A stretch of 64,000 bases of DNA, taken from assembly GCA_023732985.1 (NCBI GenBank), contig GCA_023732985.1_3946.1; one strand, given 5' to 3'. The notes beneath the pieces were generated by a model that did not search any database, was not told where the DNA came from, and was given only the letters and a program-made list of their open reading frames with translations. The DNA is from a phage. Positions 3,231 to 26,693 of this stretch are shown piece by piece; position 1 is the first letter of the stretch; each line of letters opens with the position of its first letter. A program made the translations under genes and the position numbers.

Positions 3231-3961
3231 AAAACTGGAACCTTCGTTGTGGAAACACTCAAAAGCAACCTTACAGTAATGAGTATTGGGAATCTTTGAA
3301 ATCTCAATCTCTGTGTATGCTTGAGGAAGCAAAAGAGCTTGTAAAAGCAATTGAAGAGAAAGACCCCATTGAGACACTGGATGCTCAGGCAGATTTGCAA
3401 TATGTTCTTGATGGTTTGATTTACCTGTCACAACATGACCATAATGGTGCTATGGAAGCTGTTTGCCATAATAATGACCTGAAGTACACAGACGACTATG
3501 AAGAAGCTTTAAAACGTCTTGCAGATATTGAGAAGCGTACTGGTCAAGAGTGTATCATCAGAATGTCAGTAGTTGATGGTAAAGAATGGTATGCAATTGT
3601 TCGTGCAGCCGATGGGAAGATTATGAAGCAATCTAATCTCCCTAAAGTTCAGCTTGGTGAATACATTGTAGAACTTGAAAGCCAAGAACTTTTTGTGGTA
3701 GTATCTGACACATGCGTTATCTGCAAAGGTATTGTATGTAGCTTAAAGGATTTGGGTGTAGATGGTTTTGTAGAAGTTAATCCAATTACCTCTAAAGCAG
3801 ATAAAGATTTCTGTAAAGAGAATGGACTATGGATTGCAGATATTGTCTACTATGATGGTGAGCAGTTCCATGTAACCTCATACCCGAAACTGAATTATGA
3901 TGCTAATAACCTGAAGTGCTGGTTAAAAGGGGTTGGTTATAATGGATTCACAGAACATTAA
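3206..3961 (+). CDS. hypothetical protein (N-terminal helical region loosely MazG-like)
   Basis: AAGGAG RBS upstream of ATG; LEEAKELVKAIEE...DLQYVLDGL is a weak resemblance only. Confidence 0.5.
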   Translation: MFNSRESVKNWNLRCGNTQKQPYSNEYWESLKSQSLCMLEEAKELVKAIEEKDPIETLDAQADLQYVLDGLIYLSQHDHNGAMEAVCHNNDLKYTDDYEEALKRLADIEKRTGQECIIRMSVVDGKEWYAIVRAADGKIMKQSNLPKVQLGEYIVELESQELFVVVSDTCVICKGIVCSLKDLGVDGFVEVNPITSKADKDFCKENGLWIADIVYYDGEQFHVTSYPKLNYDANNLKCWLKGVGYNGFTEH

Positions 3962-4639: not shown

Positions 4640-6874
4640 ATGATTAAGACAATTAAAAAATCAAATGGTACAGTAGTAAGCTTTGACCCAGAAAGACTGA
4701 ATAAGTGGGCATCATGGGCAGATAAACGTGGAATTATCTGGTCAGAAGTCACTATGGAAGCTATGAAACGTGTCTATGAAGGTTGCACTACAAAAGAGAT
4801 GCACCAAGCCATGATTGATGTTTGTGTTGATAAACAAACGCAAGAGTACTCAGATATGGCTGGACGGCTACTTCTGGGGATTATCTACAAAGAAGCCTTT
4901 GGAGGCTTTACTAAGGTTCCTACACTGATTACCTTCGTTAAAAATATGGAGAGGGCAGGACTTTGGGAGAAGATGGATTATTCACAGGAAGAACTTGAAT
5001 ACCTGCAAGGTTACATCGTACACTCAAAAGATATCTCTTACGGCTATGCGGTCTTGAAACAGTTCAGAGACAAGTATGGTATCCGTGATATTAAAACGGG
5101 AAGACTTTTTGAGTCACCACAATTTATGTTTATGGGTATGGCTATGAAAGCCTTTGAGAAGCAACCAAAGCACCGTAGACTGCAAGATGTTATCAAGCTG
5201 TACACTTACCTATCTGACCTGAAGATTAACGCTCCTACACCTTATTTAAACGGTTTAAGAGCAACTAAATCAGGCTATGCGTCATGCTGTTTGATTAAGG
5301 CAAATGACACTGCCGAATCTCTCGGTATTGCTGCAAAGGTTGCTTATGACATGACTACAAAGCAAGCTGGTATCGGGATGCTGATGGAGACTCGCACTAT
5401 TGGTGATGGTATCCGTCAAAATACTATTGAGCACATGGGTAAGCTACCTTATTACAAGCTTGTACGTTCATCTGTAGAGGCAAACAAACAGAAGAGTCGT
5501 GGCGGTTCAGCTAATAACTTCTACACTGCTCTAGACCCGCAGATTGAAGATTTACTGCGTTTGAAGCACCCTACAACGGTTCCTTCTAAACGTATTAATG
5601 AGATGGACTACTCATTCGGCACAAACGATTATTTCTGGCAGTGTGTTCAGTATGATACAGATTGGTTGCTATTCTCTTACAAAGATGCACCAAAACTCTA
5701 TGACATGTTCTACACAGCATCTGCTGATGAGTTTGCTATGGCAGTTGGTCATGCAGTACATTCAGGTGTTAAACACAGACGAGTCAAGGCTCGTGAAATT
5801 GCTAAGCTGTTTATTCAACAGCGTTATGCTACAGGTCGTGTGTATCCATTCTTCACTAACAATGCAAACACACATACACCATTTAAAGAACCATTGAAGA
5901 TGTCAAATCTTTGTATGGAAATTGTATTGCCAGTGTATGGTTTTGAGAAAGAGACAGACCTTTACAGAGACGATGCTGTGAAAGAGGATGGTGAGGTGGC
6001 TCTTTGCTTCCTAGCTAGTTTGGTTGCAGGGAGAATTTCAGAAGATGAATACGCTGACGTTGCTTATTATGCTCTTGCAATGGTTGACTCCGTTATTGAC
6101 CTTATGGATTATCCGTATCCGTCGATGCGTAACCATGTTCAGAAGCGTCGTTCTGTTGGGATTGGCCTTACAAATGTGGCTCATTACCTTGCGAAGAACT
6201 ACGTGAACTACTCTTCACGAGCAGGTAAGACAAAGCTTCATGAACTTGCAGAGATGCACTCTTACTACTTACACGAAGCCTCTCTGAGACTTGCTAAAGA
6301 ACGTGGTGTACCTGAGTATATGCAGTTCACTAAGTATCCTGAAGGCTGGGTTCCTCCAAAGACAGCCAATAAGAAGATTGATGAAAAGCATGATGCAAAA
6401 CTACGATATGATTGGGATGACTTAGCACAACGTATCAAAGAAAATGGTGGAATCCGAAACTCTGTATTAGAAGCTTACATGCCTAATGAGAGTTCTTCAC
6501 TAGCAACTAATACGACAAATGGCTTGTACCCAATTCGTGACTTTATTTTAACTAAAAAGTCTGCAACTGGTAACGTGTTGTTTATTGTTCCAGATTATGA
6601 AGAGTTGAAGTATGTATATGAAATTGCTTGGGGTATTGACACCTTTGACCTAATTGATTGTTATGCAATTGTTCAAAAGTTCACTGGTCAAGCTATCTCT
6701 TCAGATTTCTATGTTGACTACGCAAAAGCGAAGAAGGTATCATTGGCTCAAGCTTTGAAGTATATGATTTATGCCAACTCAGTAGGTATGAAAACCATGT
6801 ACTACCTTAACAGCCGCATTGGTGTAGGTAAATCTGCACTGCAAGATGCTTATTGCGAGGGTTGTGGTGTTTAG
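4640..6874 (+). CDS. nrdA: ribonucleoside-diphosphate reductase large subunit (class I)
   Basis: N-terminal ATP-cone-like region, SNLCMEI active-site motif, C-terminal CEGCGV redox-shuttle cysteines. Confidence 0.9.
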   Translation: MIKTIKKSNGTVVSFDPERLNKWASWADKRGIIWSEVTMEAMKRVYEGCTTKEMHQAMIDVCVDKQTQEYSDMAGRLLLGIIYKEAFGGFTKVPTLITFVKNMERAGLWEKMDYSQEELEYLQGYIVHSKDISYGYAVLKQFRDKYGIRDIKTGRLFESPQFMFMGMAMKAFEKQPKHRRLQDVIKLYTYLSDLKINAPTPYLNGLRATKSGYASCCLIKANDTAESLGIAAKVAYDMTTKQAGIGMLMETRTIGDGIRQNTIEHMGKLPYYKLVRSSVEANKQKSRGGSANNFYTALDPQIEDLLRLKHPTTVPSKRINEMDYSFGTNDYFWQCVQYDTDWLLFSYKDAPKLYDMFYTASADEFAMAVGHAVHSGVKHRRVKAREIAKLFIQQRYATGRVYPFFTNNANTHTPFKEPLKMSNLCMEIVLPVYGFEKETDLYRDDAVKEDGEVALCFLASLVAGRISEDEYADVAYYALAMVDSVIDLMDYPYPSMRNHVQKRRSVGIGLTNVAHYLAKNYVNYSSRAGKTKLHELAEMHSYYLHEASLRLAKERGVPEYMQFTKYPEGWVPPKTANKKIDEKHDAKLRYDWDDLAQRIKENGGIRNSVLEAYMPNESSSLATNTTNGLYPIRDFILTKKSATGNVLFIVPDYEELKYVYEIAWGIDTFDLIDCYAIVQKFTGQAISSDFYVDYAKAKKVSLAQALKYMIYANSVGMKTMYYLNSRIGVGKSALQDAYCEGCGV

Positions 6875-12926: not shown

Positions 12927-13247
12927 ATGAGCAAAGTTTATAACACTCGTAAATTACAGATTTTCTTACTGTGCCAGTTTATGGCTAGAGAACATAACTC
13001 CTACTATTGTGGTACAGGATTCATTAGTGATAATGATGGCTCATATCTCCCATTCAAAGAGGCTGTAAAACTCTTCAATGAAGAGAAAAGCTCTGAGAAA
13101 GGTATTGAAAAGGTTAAATTAACCTATAGTAAGAAAGATAAGAAGATTATCTGCCTAGATAACTTTGTGAAAGTTACCAAAGAAACTAAAGAGTTAATGG
13201 AAGAAAGTGAAATTCCATTCACAAGAATCTTGAAAGTAGCTCAGTAA
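12927..13247 (+). CDS. hypothetical protein
   Basis: ORF followed by intrinsic terminator. Confidence 0.5.
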   Translation: MSKVYNTRKLQIFLLCQFMAREHNSYYCGTGFISDNDGSYLPFKEAVKLFNEEKSSEKGIEKVKLTYSKKDKKIICLDNFVKVTKETKELMEESEIPFTRILKVAQ

Positions 13248-13258
13248 GCAGATACTAT

Positions 13259-13286
13259 AAGGGAACTGTAAAGGTTCCCTTTTTAT
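13259..13286 (+). terminator. intrinsic terminator
   Basis: GGGAAC ... GTTCCC then TTTTT. Confidence 0.6.
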
Positions 13287-13298
13287 TTTGGAGATAGT

Positions 13299-13814
13299 AT
13301 GTACCTGTCAAATCTGAAACGTTCTGCTGCAATGTCAGTGTTAAGACTCAGTTTTGAGGAACGTCAAGAGTTCATTGACTCCCACCAATACGACCCTTCC
13401 AACTCCAATCACATGATTCTCTGGAATCGTGAGAGTACTCGTGAAAGAGCATTATTTCGATATTACCCACACTACACCATAGATAATCTGTATGAATGTT
13501 TTGTTGTGAAGAACACCATTACAGTACTCAATAAACTTTGCAGATACACAGGCAGTCAATCCTTCACATTAGGTCATCACAAACCTATTACAAAAGGTGG
13601 TGAACATCACTGTGCAAACTGGTTTATCCAAACTAAAGCTGATAACCAGAAGCAAGGAGATAGCCTCCTAAGTATCCCTAAGATGACCTATGAAGAGCAA
13701 GAGAAATATATCAAAAATAATATGCCAGATGTGCTTGACAACAACTATACAGATTTGGCAATATCTCTCCTGTTGAAGTTCGAGACAGTTTATAGGGCAA
13801 CTTATAATGGCTAA
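13299..13814 (+). CDS. HNH endonuclease
   Basis: GHHKPITKGGEHHCANWFIQTKADNQKQGD resembles the HNH motif. Confidence 0.6.
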   Translation: MYLSNLKRSAAMSVLRLSFEERQEFIDSHQYDPSNSNHMILWNRESTRERALFRYYPHYTIDNLYECFVVKNTITVLNKLCRYTGSQSFTLGHHKPITKGGEHHCANWFIQTKADNQKQGDSLLSIPKMTYEEQEKYIKNNMPDVLDNNYTDLAISLLLKFETVYRATYNG

Positions 13815-21301: not shown

Positions 21302-21327
21302 AAGGCTGCTTCGGCGGCCTTTTTTAT
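21302..21327 (+). terminator. intrinsic terminator
   Basis: AGGCTGC-TTCG-GCGGCCT then TTTTTT. Confidence 0.6.
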
Positions 21328-21346
21328 TTGTATTTTGTGCAGAGTG
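21324..21346 (+). promoter_or_regulatory. TTGTGCAG ... CTGTATAAT promoter-like element
   Basis: same word pair as at 25828-25845; TG directly before TATAAT. Confidence 0.35.
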
Positions 21347-21386
21347 CTGTATAATTGATGTCACGATAAACTAAACAGGAGAACCA

Positions 21387-21935
21387 ATGAAGAAATTGAT
21401 TCTAGGTTTGTGCTTAATGTTTACAGCACACTTATCTTATGCAGTTGACTGCCCAGAGCTATCAATTAGCCAAAAAGTAAACATGTTAAAAGCTTACCAG
21501 TATGGTGAGAATAACATGGGTAAAGGTTGGGGTATCACTCTAGCAGCTATAGCCTTACAAGAGTCAGAGTTAGGTCTGAAGGTAGAAAATAAAAAGACCC
21601 ATGACTACGGTATCTTCCAGAATCACTTGAAGACTGTTGTAAAGCGTAACAAAATTAGTCCTAATGTTGCTAAAAAGAAACTCTTAAAAGATTTTGACTA
21701 TGCCGCAAAAGAAACACATAAAGAGCTTGAGTTTTGGACGAAGGTGCATGGTCACCCAAAGTCGAAGAAGACTTTACAAAAAGTTTTAGCATCATATAAT
21801 GCTGGGTATTCGTACAGAATCCCTAAAGCTAAGAAATATTCTCAAGATGTCTATAACAACATGAAAGTTATTGCTCAATGTGAATTTGCAACAAACATTT
21901 CTAAGGTAAACCATGAAAAAATTAAAAAAGTCTGA
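21387..21935 (+). CDS. secreted lytic transglycosylase (SLT domain)
   Basis: signal peptide MKKLILGLCLMFTAHLSYA; ALQESELG, GIFQ and YNAG motifs. Confidence 0.6.
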   Translation: MKKLILGLCLMFTAHLSYAVDCPELSISQKVNMLKAYQYGENNMGKGWGITLAAIALQESELGLKVENKKTHDYGIFQNHLKTVVKRNKISPNVAKKKLLKDFDYAAKETHKELEFWTKVHGHPKSKKTLQKVLASYNAGYSYRIPKAKKYSQDVYNNMKVIAQCEFATNISKVNHEKIKKV

Positions 21936-24958: not shown

Positions 24959-25738
24959 ATGGGTATTGTAAAAGTTGTGAAAGGTAACTTACTAGCTGCC
25001 TTCAAAAACACAGACATTGAGTTAATTGCTCATGGTTGCAACTGCCGTAACCTCATGGGTGCTGGAATCGCTCAAAAAATTGCTAAGATTTTCCCAAAAG
25101 CTGAAGAAGCTGACCGGAAATTCCATAAAAAGTTTGGCTACAGCGCTCATGATATCGGATACCAGATGGTTGGTGAGGTGTCACATGCTCGAACGGAGTA
25201 TGGTTACATTTTTAACCTATATACACAGTTGGATGTTGGGAAGTGTGCATCATACCGATACTTAGTGGAGTCACTAGAAAAACTCCGTAAATTTTGCTGG
25301 ATGCACAACATTCGTAAGATTGGTTTACCCATGATTGGTGCAGGTATCGGTGGCTTAGACGCACAAGCTGTGAAAAGCCTCATTAATAGCGTTATGTACA
25401 ACGTTGATGTGTACCTATACGTCTATGATGAAGCAATGGCAACTGTAGTTACCCCTAAGTATGCCACCTCAGCACCACAATTCTATGATGGTGTCGTGCT
25501 AAGTGACGGTAAATCTAACCATGTTACCCTCTATCAGCTTGTTGATGGTAAGGTCGAGGCTAGTTACCCTCTGGTTAGTGAGATGGGTATGTGTAATAGT
25601 GAAATGTTCTCAATTGACCCATTTGGTAGATACGAAGGGGTGTTCTTTGATAACTACCCAGCAGCATACATCTACACAACAAATCAGGATGAAGTTCACT
25701 ACTTGCTGTATTCTAAAAAGTTCAAATTCATAAACTGA
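24959..25738 (+). CDS. macro-domain-like protein (possible ADP-ribose binding/processing)
   Basis: IAHGCNCRNLMGAGIAQKI and GLPMIGAGIGG resemble the two Gly-rich macro-domain motifs; weak. Confidence 0.45.
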   Translation: MGIVKVVKGNLLAAFKNTDIELIAHGCNCRNLMGAGIAQKIAKIFPKAEEADRKFHKKFGYSAHDIGYQMVGEVSHARTEYGYIFNLYTQLDVGKCASYRYLVESLEKLRKFCWMHNIRKIGLPMIGAGIGGLDAQAVKSLINSVMYNVDVYLYVYDEAMATVVTPKYATSAPQFYDGVVLSDGKSNHVTLYQLVDGKVEASYPLVSEMGMCNSEMFSIDPFGRYEGVFFDNYPAAYIYTTNQDEVHYLLYSKKFKFIN

Positions 25739-25814
25739 TTAGTGCTTCACAGCACCTATAATTAATCTAAAAAGGCCGCCTAACCCATTGAAAAATTTAA
25801 GGTAAGGTGGTCTT

Positions 25815-25856
25815 TTTCATTTTCAATTTGTGCAGGTAGCTGTATAGGTCTGCACA
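25815..25856 (+). promoter_or_regulatory. palindromic element TGTGCAG-N14-CTGCACA with CTGTATAG box
   Basis: inverted repeat read directly; the GTGCAG word recurs at 25905 and 25951 and upstream of 21387. Confidence 0.35.
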
Positions 25857-25982
25857 GGTGTCTCAAAAAATCTCATCGCCGGATAGAAAAATCATTTTCA
25901 AAACGTGCAGACCCCGCTCAGGTCGGGCAAGAAAAATCATTTTAGAATCGTGCAGGTAGGTTTTTATAGAGAGTCAGACCAA

Positions 25983-26014
25983 CCCCTCTCCCCCTCTTAC
26001 TCCCCCTCTCCCCA
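25983..26014 (+). repeat. polypyrimidine CT-rich tract
   Basis: CCCCTCTCCCCCTCTTACTCCCCCTCTCCCC, a low-complexity run in an AT-rich genome. Confidence 0.6.
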
Positions 26015-26134
26015 AAAGTCAAGAGAAAAATTTGTAGTGGATTGAAAAATAATTCTTGATTTGTGTTTTGTTTTGTGGTAGTCGTGCGCGCCCGTTCATT
26101 TCCCAACCTTACAAAAAATATTTAATAAAAACCG

Positions 26135-26163
26135 TTGACACGCCAAACAAGTTTACGTACTAT
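26135..26163 (+). promoter_or_regulatory. sigma70-like promoter for the small-ORF array
   Basis: TTGACA, 17 bp spacer, TACTAT. Confidence 0.5.
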
Positions 26164-26212
26164 TTGCATCAGACGGGCAAGCTAGCCACTTCCTAAACTG
26201 GAGAATCTAAAA

Positions 26213-26404
26213 ATGGCATCAAGAAAAATCAAAGTCGGTGATGAGGTTAACGTTAAGTATGAGCACTCTCATAAAATGTTAACTATTCGCTCTTACAAGG
26301 TTTATCAGGTGGAAGCTATCCACGAAGACGGTACATTTTCCCTAAAAGGACATAGCGAACGTTTCCCTGCTGAATTGTTCGAAAAATGGAGTACTAAAAA
26401 ATGA
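26213..26404 (+). CDS. small hypothetical protein (array ORF 1)
   Basis: preceded by conserved CCTAAACTGGAGAATCTAAAAATG initiation region. Confidence 0.5.
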   Translation: MASRKIKVGDEVNVKYEHSHKMLTIRSYKVYQVEAIHEDGTFSLKGHSERFPAELFEKWSTKK

Positions 26405-26607
26405 TTTACAGCCGTGAATTGATGGTTACAACTAACGTTAACACAAAGGTAAAACGTTTTTACATGCAAATCTGTGGCGTATGGTCCAGAATATCAGAAG
26501 CCGACTATTGCAACTATGTAGAAACGGCAATCAACTCGAATTGCTACCTTACAAGAAACACTAAGAATTTTACAAGGCAGACAGCGATTTACTACTACGA
26601 TAAATAA
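26401..26607 (+). CDS. small hypothetical protein (array ORF 2)
   Basis: ATGA-coupled to the upstream ORF. Confidence 0.45.
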   Translation: MIYSRELMVTTNVNTKVKRFYMQICGVWSRISEADYCNYVETAINSNCYLTRNTKNFTRQTAIYYYDK

Positions 26608-26612
26608 AGTAC

Positions 26613-26693
26613 TTTACAAGGGGCTTATAGTTCGATAGAGTAAGCCCCAGATAAAGAGCTTTACTAACTAACCTTAAACTAGGAGATTCTAAA
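26613..26693 (+). promoter_or_regulatory. leader module type A (hairpin GGGGCTTA...TAAGCCCC plus conserved initiation region)
   Basis: TTTACA overlapping hairpin 26620-26648; about 80 bp near-identical copies upstream of six ORFs. Confidence 0.55.

What the first reader, a model, noticed from the sequence alone, without database searches (positions are those of the whole stretch)
25740..26130. Complex regulatory region upstream of the array: three direct repeats, a palindrome and a CT-rich tract
Three copies of (A)AATCATTTT(C/A)(A/G)AA(A/T)CGTGCAG lie at about 25815-25836, 25887-25910 and 25932-25955. The first overlaps the inverted repeat TGTGCAG-N14-CTGCACA. A 32 bp polypyrimidine tract CCCCTCTCCCCCTCTTACTCCCCCTCTCCCC sits at 25983-26014, and a GC-rich GTGCGCGCCCG at about 26087. 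This looks like a multi-operator control region, and the CT tract could form non-B DNA.
Basis: seen in the sequence. Interest (0 to 1): 0.55.

Follow-up and report, generated by a model that had tools for sequence, protein, structure and literature searches.

The report
Conserved repeat array heading early genes
The gap in front of the early-gene array of this Felix O1-like phage holds protein-binding-type direct repeats, kept across the whole phage subfamily and found at essentially one place per genome, next to the genome's only quadruplex/triplex-forming tract; it is an undescribed control or replication-start site.

Summary
The window is a Felixounavirus genome. Positions 25739-26212 are a non-coding gap between the macro-domain gene and the first gene of a promoter-driven array of small early genes.

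The gap contains:
- an intrinsic terminator;
- three direct repeats, each an A5/T5 tract followed by TCATTTY-N6-GTGCAG;
- a 31-nt C/T tract that is a perfect 14-3-14 mirror repeat, and whose complement is the only G4 motif in the genome;
- an almost invariant 48-bp block with back-to-back TTGACT-like hexamers;
- the first strong early promoter.

Relatives carry 4 copies at fixed offsets (Felix O1, Suspvirus, Mooglevirus, Erwinia phage phiEa21-4). A relative with only 30-45% protein identity carries 5.

The motif occurs nowhere else in an 86-kb genome except one paralogue, which overlaps the upstream half of a promoter-like site at 21.3 kb.

The region is not the genome end: the terminal repeat maps to 33106-33696. 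It is not coding, and it shows no conserved RNA fold.

Best reading (0.4): binding sites on double-stranded DNA for one sequence-specific protein that acts on transcription at this operon boundary. Main rival (0.25): an iteron-type replication origin primed by a leftward promoter. Function and binding protein remain unproven. I found no description of this element in the searchable literature.

The parts
25774..25817 (+). Intrinsic terminator closing the operon that ends with the macro-domain gene (stop codon at 25738). The hairpin spans 25774-25812 and the T-tail 25813-25817. A-run 25770-25773 in front gives it a two-way shape in this lineage.
   Evidence: My hairpin scan found a 12-bp stem with 7 G-C pairs. 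Compensatory base changes occur in 13 relatives (columns 38-76). KhF2 annotates a terminator at the homologous place.
25813..25838 (+). Repeat copy 1: T5 tract, TCATTTT, CAATTT, GTGCAG, GTA. It starts inside the terminator tail.
   Evidence: 36.4 bits. It is orthologous to copy 1 of all relatives.
25829..25856 (.). Inverted repeat TGTGCAG-N14-CTGCACA. The left arm is the core of copy 1. The feature is lineage-specific.
   Evidence: One search gives the coordinates. Searches show the right arm is not conserved and not compensated.
25887..25913 (+). Repeat copy 2 of the window (orthologue of copy 3 in Felix O1): A5 tract, TCATTTT, CAAAAC, GTGCAG. The copy corresponding to Felix O1 copy 2 is missing from this lineage.
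   Evidence: 27.2 bits. The homology break with Felix-type genomes falls at 25892.
25932..25958 (+). Repeat copy 3 of the window (orthologue of copy 4 in Felix O1): A5 tract, TCATTTT, AGAATC, GTGCAG, GTA.
   Evidence: 31.5 bits. The flank GGTCGGGCAAGAAAAATCATTTT is nearly identical in phiEa21-4 (GGTCTGGCAAGAAAAATCATTTT).
25983..26013 (+). C/T tract. It is a perfect 14-3-14 homopyrimidine mirror repeat. Its complement GGGGAGAGGGGGAGTAAGAGGGGGAGAGGGG is a four-run G-quadruplex motif.
   Evidence: With quadruplexes allowed, the predicted energy is -28.5 kcal/mol, against -8.2 without.
25994..26022 (-). Leftward sigma-70-like promoter element P_L: -35 TTGACT (26022->26017), 17-nt spacer, -10-like TAAGAG (25999->25994). 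A transcript would start in the G-rich run and cross the repeats in antisense.
   Evidence: TTGACTTTT is invariant in the 40 of 43 loci in which this stretch could be read. The 17-nt spacing and the TA are kept in both allelic forms. 16 of 43 genomes have TGG-TAGCCT instead. phiEa21-4 has TTGACG-18-TATACT at the equivalent place. The consensus scan does not call P_L in this window, because the last base of the -10 is G. Function is inferred.
26014..26061 (.). Nearly invariant 48-bp A+T-rich block containing the inverted repeat AGTCAAGA (26017-26024) ... TCTTGATT (26054-26061).
   Evidence: Mean column identity 0.955, with 85% of columns invariant across three genera. The pairing is seen (columns 359-403).
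26056..26094 (+). Rightward promoter-like element P0: TTGATT, 17 nt, TAGTCG (26079-26084), followed by the GC-rich GTGCGCGCCCG (26084-26094).
   Evidence: T, A and the final G of the hexamer are invariant in 13 genomes. The element is positionally equivalent to the single early promoter of phiEa21-4. The scan does not call it.
26106..26163 (+). First strong early promoter P1 of the array: A+T-rich upstream element 26106-26131, -35 TTGACA 26135-26140, -10 TACTAT 26158-26163. It serves the 63-codon gene that starts at 26213.
   Evidence: 10 of 12 matches. Conserved.
21304..21355 (+). Paralogous single copy outside the finding: terminator hairpin 21304-21319, then TTTTTTATTTGTATTTTGTGCAG (21320-21342), then 7 nt and a perfect TATAAT (21350-21355), ahead of the gene at 21387.
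   Evidence: It is the best non-self match of copy 1 anywhere in the window: 30 of 44 identities, 6.3 SD above the mean, with the next best at 26. It is conserved in Felix O1, L117 and L123.

Best explanation
The gap is the conserved boundary and control region of Felix O1-like phages (subfamily Ounavirinae). It lies between the long rightward operon that ends with the macro-domain gene and the array of small early genes next to the right genome end.

Shown:
- The operon ends at an intrinsic terminator.
- Behind the terminator lie 3 direct repeats (4-5 in relatives). Each has an A5 or T5 tract and two invariant 6-nt half-sites, TCATTT and GTGCA(G/T), whose centres are 13 bp apart (just over one helical turn).
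- Then come a C-rich mirror-repeat tract, an invariant block with two outward-facing TTGACT-type hexamers, and the first strong early promoter.

Inferred:
- The repeats are sites on double-stranded DNA for one sequence-specific protein that reads two successive major grooves. I think it is phage-encoded, but it is not identified.
- Bound to its 3-5 sites, the protein acts on transcription at this boundary. It would stop read-through from the upstream operon and antisense transcription from the leftward promoter. It would also set the activity of the back-to-back promoters as infection proceeds.
- The same box lies over positions -38 to -20 of one promoter-like site 4.5 kb upstream (21.35 kb), which would put that operon under the same factor.
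- The C/T tract forms the spacer and start region of the leftward promoter. Under negative supercoiling or transcription it can adopt a triplex or quadruplex structure that modulates this promoter. It is an optional module, absent from about a third of relatives.
For: - The repeats are far beyond chance.
- Copy number, order and spacing are conserved in 43 related loci: 73/39/45, 75/41/45 or 75/45 bp.
- The same core is present in phiEa21-4 (4 copies, spacing 37/37/39) and in a relative with 30-45% protein identity (5 copies). In both it sits between the macro gene and the early array.
- Half-site columns have 0.92 identity against 0.60 for the spacers.
- The tract in front of each core is either A5 or T5. 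This is symmetric for DNA but not for RNA.
- There is no conserved RNA fold on either strand apart from the terminator and no Rfam match reaching the family threshold.
- There is no conserved reading frame.
- The motif is absent from the rest of the window and of Felix O1, from 45 kb of phiEa21-4 and 20 kb of the distant relative. DNA-similarity searches with stretches of the gap found nothing significant in E. coli genomes or plasmids.
- The one paralogue is statistically clear. It lies between a terminator and a perfect TATAAT.
- The region is flanked by promoter elements on both strands.
- Felix O1 encodes at least one Cro/XRE-type helix-turn-helix protein.
Against: - No binding protein is identified. 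Pfam and PHROGs give nothing for the neighbouring genes.
- The repeats are direct and asymmetric, unlike the dyad operators of helix-turn-helix dimers such as the XRE protein.
- They lie 180-320 bp from the first strong early promoter, and every array gene has its own promoter. Control of the whole array from here is therefore not plausible.
- The leftward and P0 promoter elements lack the T at the last -10 position in this window and are not called by the scan.
- A motif kept unchanged across genera whose proteins differ by 55-70% is unusual for a phage-specific regulator and its site.
- An origin would explain why the cluster is essentially unique in the genome at least as well.
Confidence: 0.4

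Rival explanations
1. Replication origin of the iteron type. The direct repeats bind an initiator or helicase loader. The leftward promoter supplies an activating or priming transcript whose G-rich start forms a stable RNA-DNA hybrid on the C-rich template, leaving the displaced strand free to form a quadruplex. Replication then starts in the adjoining A+T-rich block. The single copy at 21.3 kb would be an auxiliary or autoregulatory site.
For: - There is one cluster per genome, in non-coding DNA. It has 3-5 direct repeats of about 21-25 bp, each with an A-tract.
- Next to it are a polypyrimidine mirror repeat and an A+T-rich palindromic block. From memory, this layout resembles lambda ori: four iterons, a strand-asymmetric A+T region and a palindrome.
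- A conserved promoter-like element fires leftward into a stretch with no genes on that strand.
- The only G4 motif of the genome sits at its start site.
- The cluster-plus-distant-single-site layout recalls P4 ori/crr (from memory).
- The other unique cis site of the genome, the terminal repeat, is accounted for elsewhere.
Against: - There is no outstanding easily melted segment. The best 40-bp window in the gap is only 2.1 SD from the mean, about 1100 positions are less stable, and the least stable DNA lies at 33.7-34.3 kb.
- No initiator gene was found near the site.
- The Felix O1 record annotates a primase/helicase, a DNA polymerase and an exonuclease carrying T7-style gene names (4A, 6). 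In T7 such a replisome starts from promoters, not iterons (from memory).
- Iteron sequences usually diverge quickly together with their initiator, whereas here they are constant across genera.
- The G-rich start is missing in 16 of 43 genomes, where the transcript would be C-rich instead.
- GC skew gives no signal.
- There is no good DnaA box in the Felix type (6 of 9 by eye).
Confidence: 0.25
2. RNA-level element. One possibility is a leftward non-coding RNA of about 230 nt in this lineage, running from the G-rich start to the two-way terminator and carrying the repeats as antisense or protein-sponge modules. The other is that, on plus-strand read-through transcripts, the C-rich G-poor tract serves as a Rho loading site backing up the terminator.
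For: - The leftward promoter-like element is conserved.
- The terminator has an A-run in front and a T-run behind in this lineage.
- A C-rich, G-poor plus-strand segment occurs near the repeats in Felix-type, Moogle, Susp, phiEa21-4 and the distant relative.
- CCCCCTCTTAC resembles lambda boxA/rutA CCCCGCTCTTAC (from memory, not tested).
Against: - There is no conserved secondary structure and no covariation on either strand, and no Rfam family reaches its threshold.
- An A5 tract in some copies and a T5 tract in others, at the same position, argues for double-stranded DNA.
- In Felix-type genomes the hairpin is not followed by a T-run on the minus strand, so the RNA would have no defined end.
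- The C-rich tract is absent in 37% of genomes.
- Neither version explains the invariant half-sites.
Confidence: 0.1
3. Stop or pause signal for stepwise DNA entry, as in phage T5. The right-terminal 7 kb carrying the early array (about 8% of the genome) would enter first, and a protein bound to the repeats would hold the rest until early proteins are made.
For: - The gap lies 7 kb inside the right end, exactly at the inner border of the block of small genes that each carry their own promoter.
- From memory, the T5 first-step-transfer boundary is likewise a non-coding region rich in repeats and palindromes.
Against: - I found no report of two-step transfer in Felix O1-like phages.
- It is not known which end enters first.
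- The idea does not explain the paralogue at 21.3 kb.
- It rests purely on analogy.
Confidence: 0.05
4. Functionless leftovers: tandem duplications of a terminator-tail-plus-promoter module that have lost their -10 elements.
For: - The left half of the repeat equals the usual terminator tail of this phage, TTTTT(C/T)ATTT.
- Copy 1 and the site at 21.3 kb are clear paralogues of a terminator-promoter junction.
- Copy number varies from 3 to 5, and one copy has been lost in this lineage.
Against: - The half-sites are invariant in about 170 copies from genomes whose proteins are only 30-45% identical, while the spacers drift.
- Position and orientation are fixed.
- Such purifying selection is not expected of decaying duplicates.
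Confidence: 0.04
5. Genome terminus or packaging recognition site (binding sites for terminase, as in cosB or pac).
For: - It is a non-coding region of about 500 bp with repeated sites spaced 40-75 bp apart. This resembles the spacing of terminase-binding sites in lambda cosB (from memory).
- Several database contigs break near here.
Against: - The 581-bp terminal repeat determined with PhageTerm for phage Pr103Blw (PMC8303462; annotated at both ends of the record) maps to window 33106-33696.
- Other records start there and carry the sequence at both ends (ZX4221, ECP2307), and Danish isolates annotate it as a repeat region.
Confidence: 0.02

Closest known systems
Iteron arrays of replication origins (lambda ori; plasmid P1/F/R6K origins; T4 oriE; P4 ori/crr). 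Comparison from memory.
   Same: 3-5 direct repeats of about 20 bp with two conserved halves roughly one helical turn apart. Bend-prone A-tracts. A single cluster per genome in non-coding DNA. An adjacent strand-asymmetric pyrimidine tract and palindrome. A nearby promoter. One extra copy lying in a promoter, as in autoregulated rep genes.
   Different: Repeat spacing is wide and uneven (37-75 bp). There is no marked unwinding element. No initiator gene has been identified. The repeat sequence is conserved across genera instead of co-diverging with an initiator. Replication function is untested.
Multi-site transcriptional switch regions of lytic phages, e.g. the four p4 sites between the divergent early and late promoters of phi29. 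Comparison from memory.
   Same: Several A/T-tract-containing sites for one small phage protein, lying between or beside divergently oriented promoters. The sites are used to switch promoters during infection.
   Different: The phi29 sites are inverted repeats (CTTTTT-N15-AAAATG) that overlap the promoters they control. Here the sites are direct and asymmetric, mostly 60-320 bp from the promoters, and no late gene lies on the other strand.
Activator boxes that replace a poor -35 element (T4 MotA box at middle promoters; lambda CII sites). Comparison from memory.
   Same: At 21.3 kb the box covers about -38 to -20 of a site with a perfect -10 and a poor -35.
   Different: Such boxes are spread over many promoters of a genome. 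This motif has only one promoter-embedded copy, plus a cluster whose copies lack proper -10 elements.
H-DNA-forming homopurine/homopyrimidine mirror repeats and G-quadruplex or R-loop elements at origins and promoters (ColE1 RNA II, mitochondrial CSBII). Comparison from memory.
   Same: A perfect 14-3-14 pyrimidine mirror repeat. Four G-runs of at least 4 with loops of 3-7 nt on the other strand. The tract is placed at the start of a promoter-like element, so the RNA would be G-rich.
   Different: No structural or functional data exist. The tract is replaced by an unrelated segment in 16 of 43 relatives.
T5 first-step-transfer boundary (injection stop signal). Comparison from memory.
   Same: A repeat-rich non-coding region at the inner edge of a terminal block of host-takeover genes that makes up about 8% of the genome.
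   Different: In T5 the block lies inside a 10-kb terminal repeat. Here the terminal repeat is 0.6 kb and lies 7 kb away. Two-step entry is not known for these phages.

Membership tests
Iteron-type replication origin | Three or more direct repeats of about 17-22 bp in one orientation | tested here: met
   There are 3 copies here and 4-5 in relatives, all on the + strand. The core is about 19-25 nt.
Iteron-type replication origin | Adjacent A+T-rich DNA-unwinding element of outstandingly low duplex stability | tested here: not met
   In a nearest-neighbour stability scan the best 40-bp window in the gap (26021-26060) has z = 2.1. About 1100 positions in the window are less stable, and the minima lie at 33.7-34.3 kb.
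Iteron-type replication origin | Cognate initiator protein, usually encoded next to the iterons | tested here: inconclusive
   Pfam and PHROGs scans of 20 neighbouring proteins give no DNA-binding or Rep family. Most of these proteins are of unknown function.
Iteron-type replication origin | Supports initiation of replication (copy-number peak, autonomous or phage-dependent replication) | not testable with these tools
   This needs marker-frequency sequencing or a plasmid assay. GC skew follows gene orientation only.
Operator array of a phage repressor or activator | Repeated sites overlapping or directly flanking the promoters they control | tested here: inconclusive
   The paralogue at 21320-21342 overlaps the -35/spacer of a TATAAT site. 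The clustered copies lie 35-260 bp downstream of the leftward element and 180-320 bp upstream of P1.
Operator array of a phage repressor or activator | Dyad symmetry of each site (for helix-turn-helix dimers) | tested here: not met
   The core TCATTTY-N6-GTGCAG is asymmetric. Only the A5-type copies have a partial GAAAA-N4-TTTTC dyad in the left half.
Operator array of a phage repressor or activator | Cognate regulator encoded by the phage | tested here: inconclusive
   Felix O1 ORF85 is an XRE/Cro-type HTH protein (HTH_3, E = 3e-9). Nothing links it to these sites.
Sigma-70 promoters (the repeats themselves) | -35 and -10 hexamers 16-18 bp apart, with A at position 2 and T at position 6 of the -10 | tested here: not met
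   The scan finds only P1 in the gap. No conserved -10 follows GTGCAG in the copies. The invariant bases TCATTT do not coincide with a TTG of a -35.
G-quadruplex motif | Four runs of at least 3 G separated by loops of 1-7 nt | tested here: met
   The minus strand at 25983-26013 qualifies, and it is the only such motif in the window and in Felix O1. The predicted quadruplex has -28.5 kcal/mol. Formation in the cell is not testable here.
H-DNA (intramolecular triplex) sequence | Homopurine/homopyrimidine mirror repeat with arms of at least about 10 nt and a short spacer | tested here: met
   The arms CCCCTCTCCCCCTC and CTCCCCCTCTCCCC are exact mirror images around TTA. Felix O1 has one mismatch, and Mooglevirus keeps only the central 6-7 nt.
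Direct terminal repeat / packaging site | Coincides with the physical genome ends | tested here: not met
   The ends map to window 33106-33696.
Known RNA family / structured non-coding RNA | Match to a covariance model, or a conserved fold with covariation | tested here: not met
   All Rfam matches are far below their gathering scores. Consensus folding gives only the terminator on the + strand and nothing on the - strand.

The most novel reading that the evidence does not exclude
The gap is the replication origin of Felix O1-like phages and combines two principles not known together in a lytic phage. The first is an array of initiator- or helicase-loader-binding iterons. The second is a host-polymerase transcript that starts in a G-rich mirror-repeat tract and forms an R-loop/quadruplex primer, as in ColE1 and mitochondrial DNA. 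The single distant copy at 21.3 kb would act as an auxiliary or autoregulatory site.
Probability: 0.2. Interest if true: 0.7.

Novelty: new variant of a known kind. Interest (0 to 1): 0.5.

Why it matters
Felix O1 is the classical Salmonella typing phage, and its relatives are widely used in biocontrol, phage therapy cocktails and the BASEL collection. Even so, the Felix O1 genome paper states that its temporal control of transcription is unknown and never mentions an origin of replication (0 occurrences of the phrase).

This gap holds the most strongly constrained non-coding DNA I saw in the region. It has an almost invariant 48-bp block and half-sites that are unchanged from Salmonella and E. 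coli phages to an Erwinia phage. Database records cover it with differing, non-conserved "hypothetical proteins".

Identifying the protein that reads the repeats would yield one of two things: the switch that separates host-takeover genes from the rest of the genome, or the origin. Either is needed for rational engineering of these phages, for example to choose safe insertion sites, build minimal genomes or make phage-dependent plasmids.

The tract is also a clean natural test case for triplex or quadruplex DNA at a bacterial-type promoter. Natural alleles with and without it are available.

Tried and rejected
**Genome end or packaging site.** Rejected. The terminal repeat maps 7 kb to the right.

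**Known RNA family.** Nothing scores near threshold.

**Conserved RNA structure on either strand.** Only the terminator is supported.

**Small proteins.** ORFs of 35-105 codons occur on both strands, and several records annotate them. Start, frame and length differ between genomes. The window itself has a stop where VpaE1 reads through. A 28-bp insertion and a segment replacement break the frames. Repeat spacings of 37, 41 and 73 bp are not multiples of three.

**Dispersed promoter or operator motif.** A weight-matrix scan of the window and of the whole Felix O1 genome finds only the cluster. GTGCA(G/T) placed 6-9 nt before a TAnnnT gives only one intergenic site.

**Sigma factors and host proteins, judged by eye only.**
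- Sigma-54: no GG/GC pair.
- SigmaE: GAACTC...TCAAA has an 18-nt spacer instead of 16.
- DnaA box: 6 of 9 in the Felix type, although 8 of 9 in phiEa21-4.
- IHF, Fur, MarA/Rob box, LexA and CRP: partial resemblances at best.

**Mini-CRISPR array.** The repeat and spacer sizes and the sequence do not fit.

**Host or plasmid origin of the element.** There is no match in 5,426 E. coli genomes. Against plasmids there are only chance-level hits.

**Wider searches with the two-copy pattern.**
- IMG/VR returns felixounavirus-size contigs plus chance tandem repeats.
- The species-genome collection returns 42 hits. All look like unrelated tandem repeats when re-scored with the matrix; the sole exception is a weak pair in L059 (about 19.5 bits), which I did not examine.
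- In the metagenome loci that could be re-scored, all strong hits have the Ounavirinae repeat pattern, most on contigs of 81-89 kb.

**Origin signals.** GC skew and duplex stability give none.

**Literature.** The Felix O1 genome paper, the Bas63 knockout screen, and full-text searches for terminal repeats, iterons or origin, and transcriptomes contain nothing on this region.
Full report
**What the window is and where the finding lies**

The window is a Felix O1-like myovirus (genus Felixounavirus). Stretches spanning the finding (25300-26700 and 25740-26212) match 228-256 phage records of Escherichia, Salmonella, Shigella and Citrobacter phages of the subfamily Ounavirinae. The window also carries 25 tRNA genes.

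Genes run rightward from position 1 to about 33 kb. The finding occupies the 474-bp gap 25739-26212. On its left is the macro-domain gene (24959-25738; Pfam Macro). On its right is the first of a series of small genes of unknown function, nearly all of which have their own sigma-70-type promoter. That series is the "array" in the finding's title.

**Check of the observation**

- *Repeats.* The three copies are at 25816-25838, 25891-25913 and 25936-25958. A looser pattern picks up all three copies. A weight matrix built from relatives scores them 27-36 bits, against at most 17.8 in shuffled genomes.
- *Inverted repeat.* TGTGCAG-N14-CTGCACA is exact (25829-25856).
- *C/T tract.* It is 31 nt (25983-26013) and contains one A.
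- *GC-rich element.* GTGCGCGCCCG is at 26084-26094.

**Anatomy, left to right**

1. An intrinsic terminator with hairpin 25774-25812 and tail TTTTT. It is supported by compensatory changes in relatives.
2. Repeat copy 1, which begins inside the terminator tail.
3. Two further copies.
4. The C/T tract.
5. A 48-bp A+T-rich block (26014-26061) containing the inverted repeat AGTCAAGA ... TCTTGATT.
6. A promoter-like TTGATT-17-TAGTCG, followed by the GC-rich element.
7. An A+T-rich upstream element and the strong promoter TTGACA-17-TACTAT (26135-26163), which serves the gene at 26213.

**Comparative evidence**

I aligned 13 genomes from Felixounavirus, Suspvirus and Mooglevirus. I also made a census of 43 loci that included IMG/VR contigs.

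- *Copy number and spacing.* Most genomes have four copies at fixed offsets: spacing 73/39/45 bp in 20 loci and 75/41/45 bp in 8. The window's lineage (6 loci) has lost the second copy, giving 75/45.
- *Anatomy of a copy.* Each copy is an A5 or T5 tract followed by TCATTT(T/C), six partly variable bases and GTGCAG.
- *Conservation.* Columns of the two half-sites have 0.92 mean identity, lowered only by the missing copy. DNA between the copies has 0.60. The 48-bp block has 0.955.
- *Erwinia phage phiEa21-4 (genus Kolesnikvirus).* According to the Felix O1 paper it shares DNA similarity with Felix O1 mainly in the morphogenesis and replication regions. It has the same arrangement in the same place: macro/phosphatase gene, terminator, then four copies of W5-TCATTTT-N6-GTGCATAG spaced 37/37/39. 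After these come a C-rich stretch, back-to-back promoters (minus strand TTGACG-18-TATACT, plus strand TTGACT-17-TATATT) and the array.
- *A more distant 88-kb metagenomic phage.* Its proteins are only 30-45% identical to the window's. It has five copies of AAAWTCATTTYAAAAACGTGCAT in the same position.

The element is therefore ancient and under strong purifying selection.

**Uniqueness of the motif**

The matrix finds no other copy in the 64-kb window or in the complete 86-kb Felix O1 genome. A looser pattern finds none in 45 kb of phiEa21-4 or in 20 kb of the distant relative. DNA-similarity searches with stretches of the gap (not motif searches) gave no hit in E. coli genomes and only chance-level hits in plasmids. 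Broader pattern scans returned Ounavirinae-like contigs plus unrelated tandem repeats.

The motif is thus not a dispersed promoter or operator. It marks one cis-acting locus.

**One paralogue in a promoter context**

At 21320-21342, directly behind the terminator that follows rIIB, lies TTTTTTATTTGTATTTTGTGCAG. It is followed after 7 nt by a perfect TATAAT (21350-21355) and then the gene at 21387.

This is the best match to copy 1 and its flank anywhere in the window: 30 of 44 identities, 6.3 SD above the mean, with the next best at 26. It aligns with copy 1 from the terminator tail through CTGTATA and is conserved in Felix O1 and two metagenomic relatives. Here the box covers about -38 to -20 of a site with an ideal -10 and a poor -35. 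The consensus scan does not call it, so its promoter function is my inference.

Many terminators of this phage end in TTTTT(C/T)ATTT, which is the left half of the repeat. The repeat family therefore probably arose from a terminator-promoter junction.

**What the region is not**

- *Not the genome end.* The 581-bp terminal repeat determined for phage Pr103Blw (PMC8303462) is annotated at both ends of that record and maps to window 33106-33696. Other records begin there and carry the sequence twice.
- *Not a known RNA family*, and there is no conserved fold on either strand beyond the terminator.
- *Not coding.* The ORFs that various records annotate inside the gap differ in frame, start and length. 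They are broken by an indel, by a segment replacement and, in the window itself, by a stop codon.
- *The repeats are not sigma-70 promoters.* No conserved -10 follows them.
- *DNA rather than RNA.* The tract in front of the core is A5 in some copies and T5 in others. This is equivalent on double-stranded DNA but not on RNA, so the element is probably read as DNA.

**The C/T tract**

It is a perfect 14-3-14 pyrimidine mirror repeat, which is the sequence requirement for an intramolecular triplex. Its complement is the only four-run G-quadruplex motif in the window and in Felix O1, with a large predicted quadruplex energy.

On the minus strand it forms the 17-nt spacer and the start region of a promoter-like element, TTGACT-17-TAAGAG. 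In 16 of 43 genomes the tract is replaced by an unrelated segment that keeps TTGACT, the 17-nt spacing and the TA, and has the better TGG-TAGCCT. One genome has a 28-bp palindromic insertion just behind the hexamer.

So a leftward promoter seems to be what is conserved, and the non-B-DNA tract is an optional version of it. There are no genes on the minus strand to its left. A transcript from it would cross the repeats.

**Mechanism**

*Shown:* the anatomy, the conservation, the uniqueness and the paralogue.

*Inferred:* the repeats are binding sites for one protein that reads two successive major grooves (the half-site centres are 13 bp apart).

I rank a transcriptional role first (0.4), for four reasons:
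- The only copy outside the cluster overlaps a promoter-like site.
- The cluster sits exactly at an operon boundary, between a terminator and back-to-back promoters.
- The gap has no marked unwinding element.
- I found no initiator.

In this model the bound protein insulates the early array from the upstream operon, blocks the leftward transcript and tunes the flanking promoters.

An iteron-type origin activated by the leftward transcript is the main rival (0.25). It explains better why there is one cluster per genome and why a promoter fires into gene-free DNA across a G-rich start. It is weakened by the stability scan, by the unchanged repeat sequence across genera, by the absence of the G-rich start in a third of genomes, and by a replisome whose annotated primase/helicase, polymerase and exonuclease resemble those of T7.

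An RNA-level role, a T5-like entry stop, decayed duplicates and a packaging site follow with low weight.

**Comparison with what is known, and novelty**

The closest known systems are iteron origins (lambda ori, T4 oriE, P4 ori/crr), multi-site switch regions such as the phi29 p4 sites, activator boxes that replace a -35 (T4 MotA, lambda CII), and H-DNA or G4/R-loop elements. These comparisons come from my own knowledge, and none is a membership claim.

Tests of defining features gave mixed results:
- *Met:* direct repeats; the G4 and mirror-repeat definitions.
- *Not met:* an unwinding element; operator dyad symmetry; promoter hexamers in the repeats; coincidence with the genome ends.

The Felix O1 genome paper lists other direct repeats (the array promoters) but not these. 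It says that temporal control is unknown. My full-text searches found nothing on iterons, an origin or transcript maps for this group. I therefore file the element as a new variant of a known kind, with moderate interest (0.5).

Noticed in passing
window 33106-33696 (and 33700-34300): This is the direct terminal repeat of the phage, that is, its physical genome ends. It is packed with short CTTAACA / CTTGTTAG / CTGTTAAG repeats in both orientations. The least stable duplex DNA of the whole window lies just beyond it, at 33.7-34.3 kb.
   Followed up: partly
window 21304-21355: A single paralogue of the repeat (TTTTTTATTTGTATTTTGTGCAG) sits between the terminator after rIIB and a perfect TATAAT, ahead of an SLT-like gene. 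It is conserved in Felix O1 and in metagenomic relatives.
   Followed up: yes
window 24959-25892: The macro-domain gene is a divergent allele: 41% amino-acid identity to the Felix O1 type, and 13 records share this allele at 90% identity or more. The break in DNA homology with Felix-type genomes falls exactly at a repeat copy (25892), which suggests recombination between repeats.
   Followed up: partly
window 26079-26084 and 25994-25999 (minus strand): Both promoter-like elements flanking the invariant block have TA...G where a -10 hexamer has TA...T (TAGTCG and TAAGAG). The G of TAGTCG is invariant in 13 genomes; TAAGAG is kept in the 9 of the 13 that carry the C/T-tract allele.
   Followed up: partly
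window 1391, 4600, 13261, 16821, 21304, 23097, 25774, 38968(-): Many intrinsic terminators of this phage share the tail TTTTT(C/T/A)ATTT. Several of the hairpins are near-identical GGCTCCTTCGGGAGCC-type tetraloop stems.
   Followed up: no
L002 (Escherichia phage VpaE1_ev035), locus 3690-3720: A 28-bp insertion containing the palindrome CTGTCTCTAGAGACAG, plus a duplicated CTCTTACTCCCCCT, lies inside the C/T tract directly behind the leftward -10-like hexamer.
   Followed up: no
L051 + L054 (IMGVR_UViG_3300045988_063805), reverse-complement coordinates 5600-5800 and 13200-13600: In this distant relative a cluster of about ten TTAACA repeats directly follows the five repeat copies. A second such cluster lies in the non-coding gap after its early-gene array, where the terminal repeat would be expected. 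This links the two kinds of repeat spatially.
   Followed up: partly
L024 (IMGVR_UViG_3300018080_002802), 6253-6321 minus strand: An unrelated 10-kb podovirus-like contig (it has a T7-type head-tail connector) carries two tandem units containing AATCATTTTAACATAGTGCAG. They lie in a repeat-rich non-coding region upstream of a promoter and a structural operon. This is possibly chance.
   Followed up: partly
homologous gaps in AF320576 (ORF31-34), KT363872 (Mordin_126), MF158041 (Sf15_gp10), MN850587 (mistaenkt_18), MW481326 (Pr103Blw_00144): Public records annotate different "hypothetical proteins" across the repeats and the C/T tract. Their frames and starts are not conserved, so they are probably over-annotation.
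   Followed up: yes
GU169904.1 (Staphylococcus phage SA1), 128872-129682: A record labelled as a Staphylococcus phage contains Felix O1-like sequence, including this gap, at 87-89% identity. It looks like a chimeric or contaminated record.
   Followed up: no
L016 6742-7068 minus strand (Felix O1 ORF85, outside the window): This is a 108-aa Cro/XRE-type helix-turn-helix protein, the only clear DNA-binding regulator I came across in the Felix O1 genome. It is a candidate to test on the repeats or on the 48-bp palindromic block.
   Followed up: no
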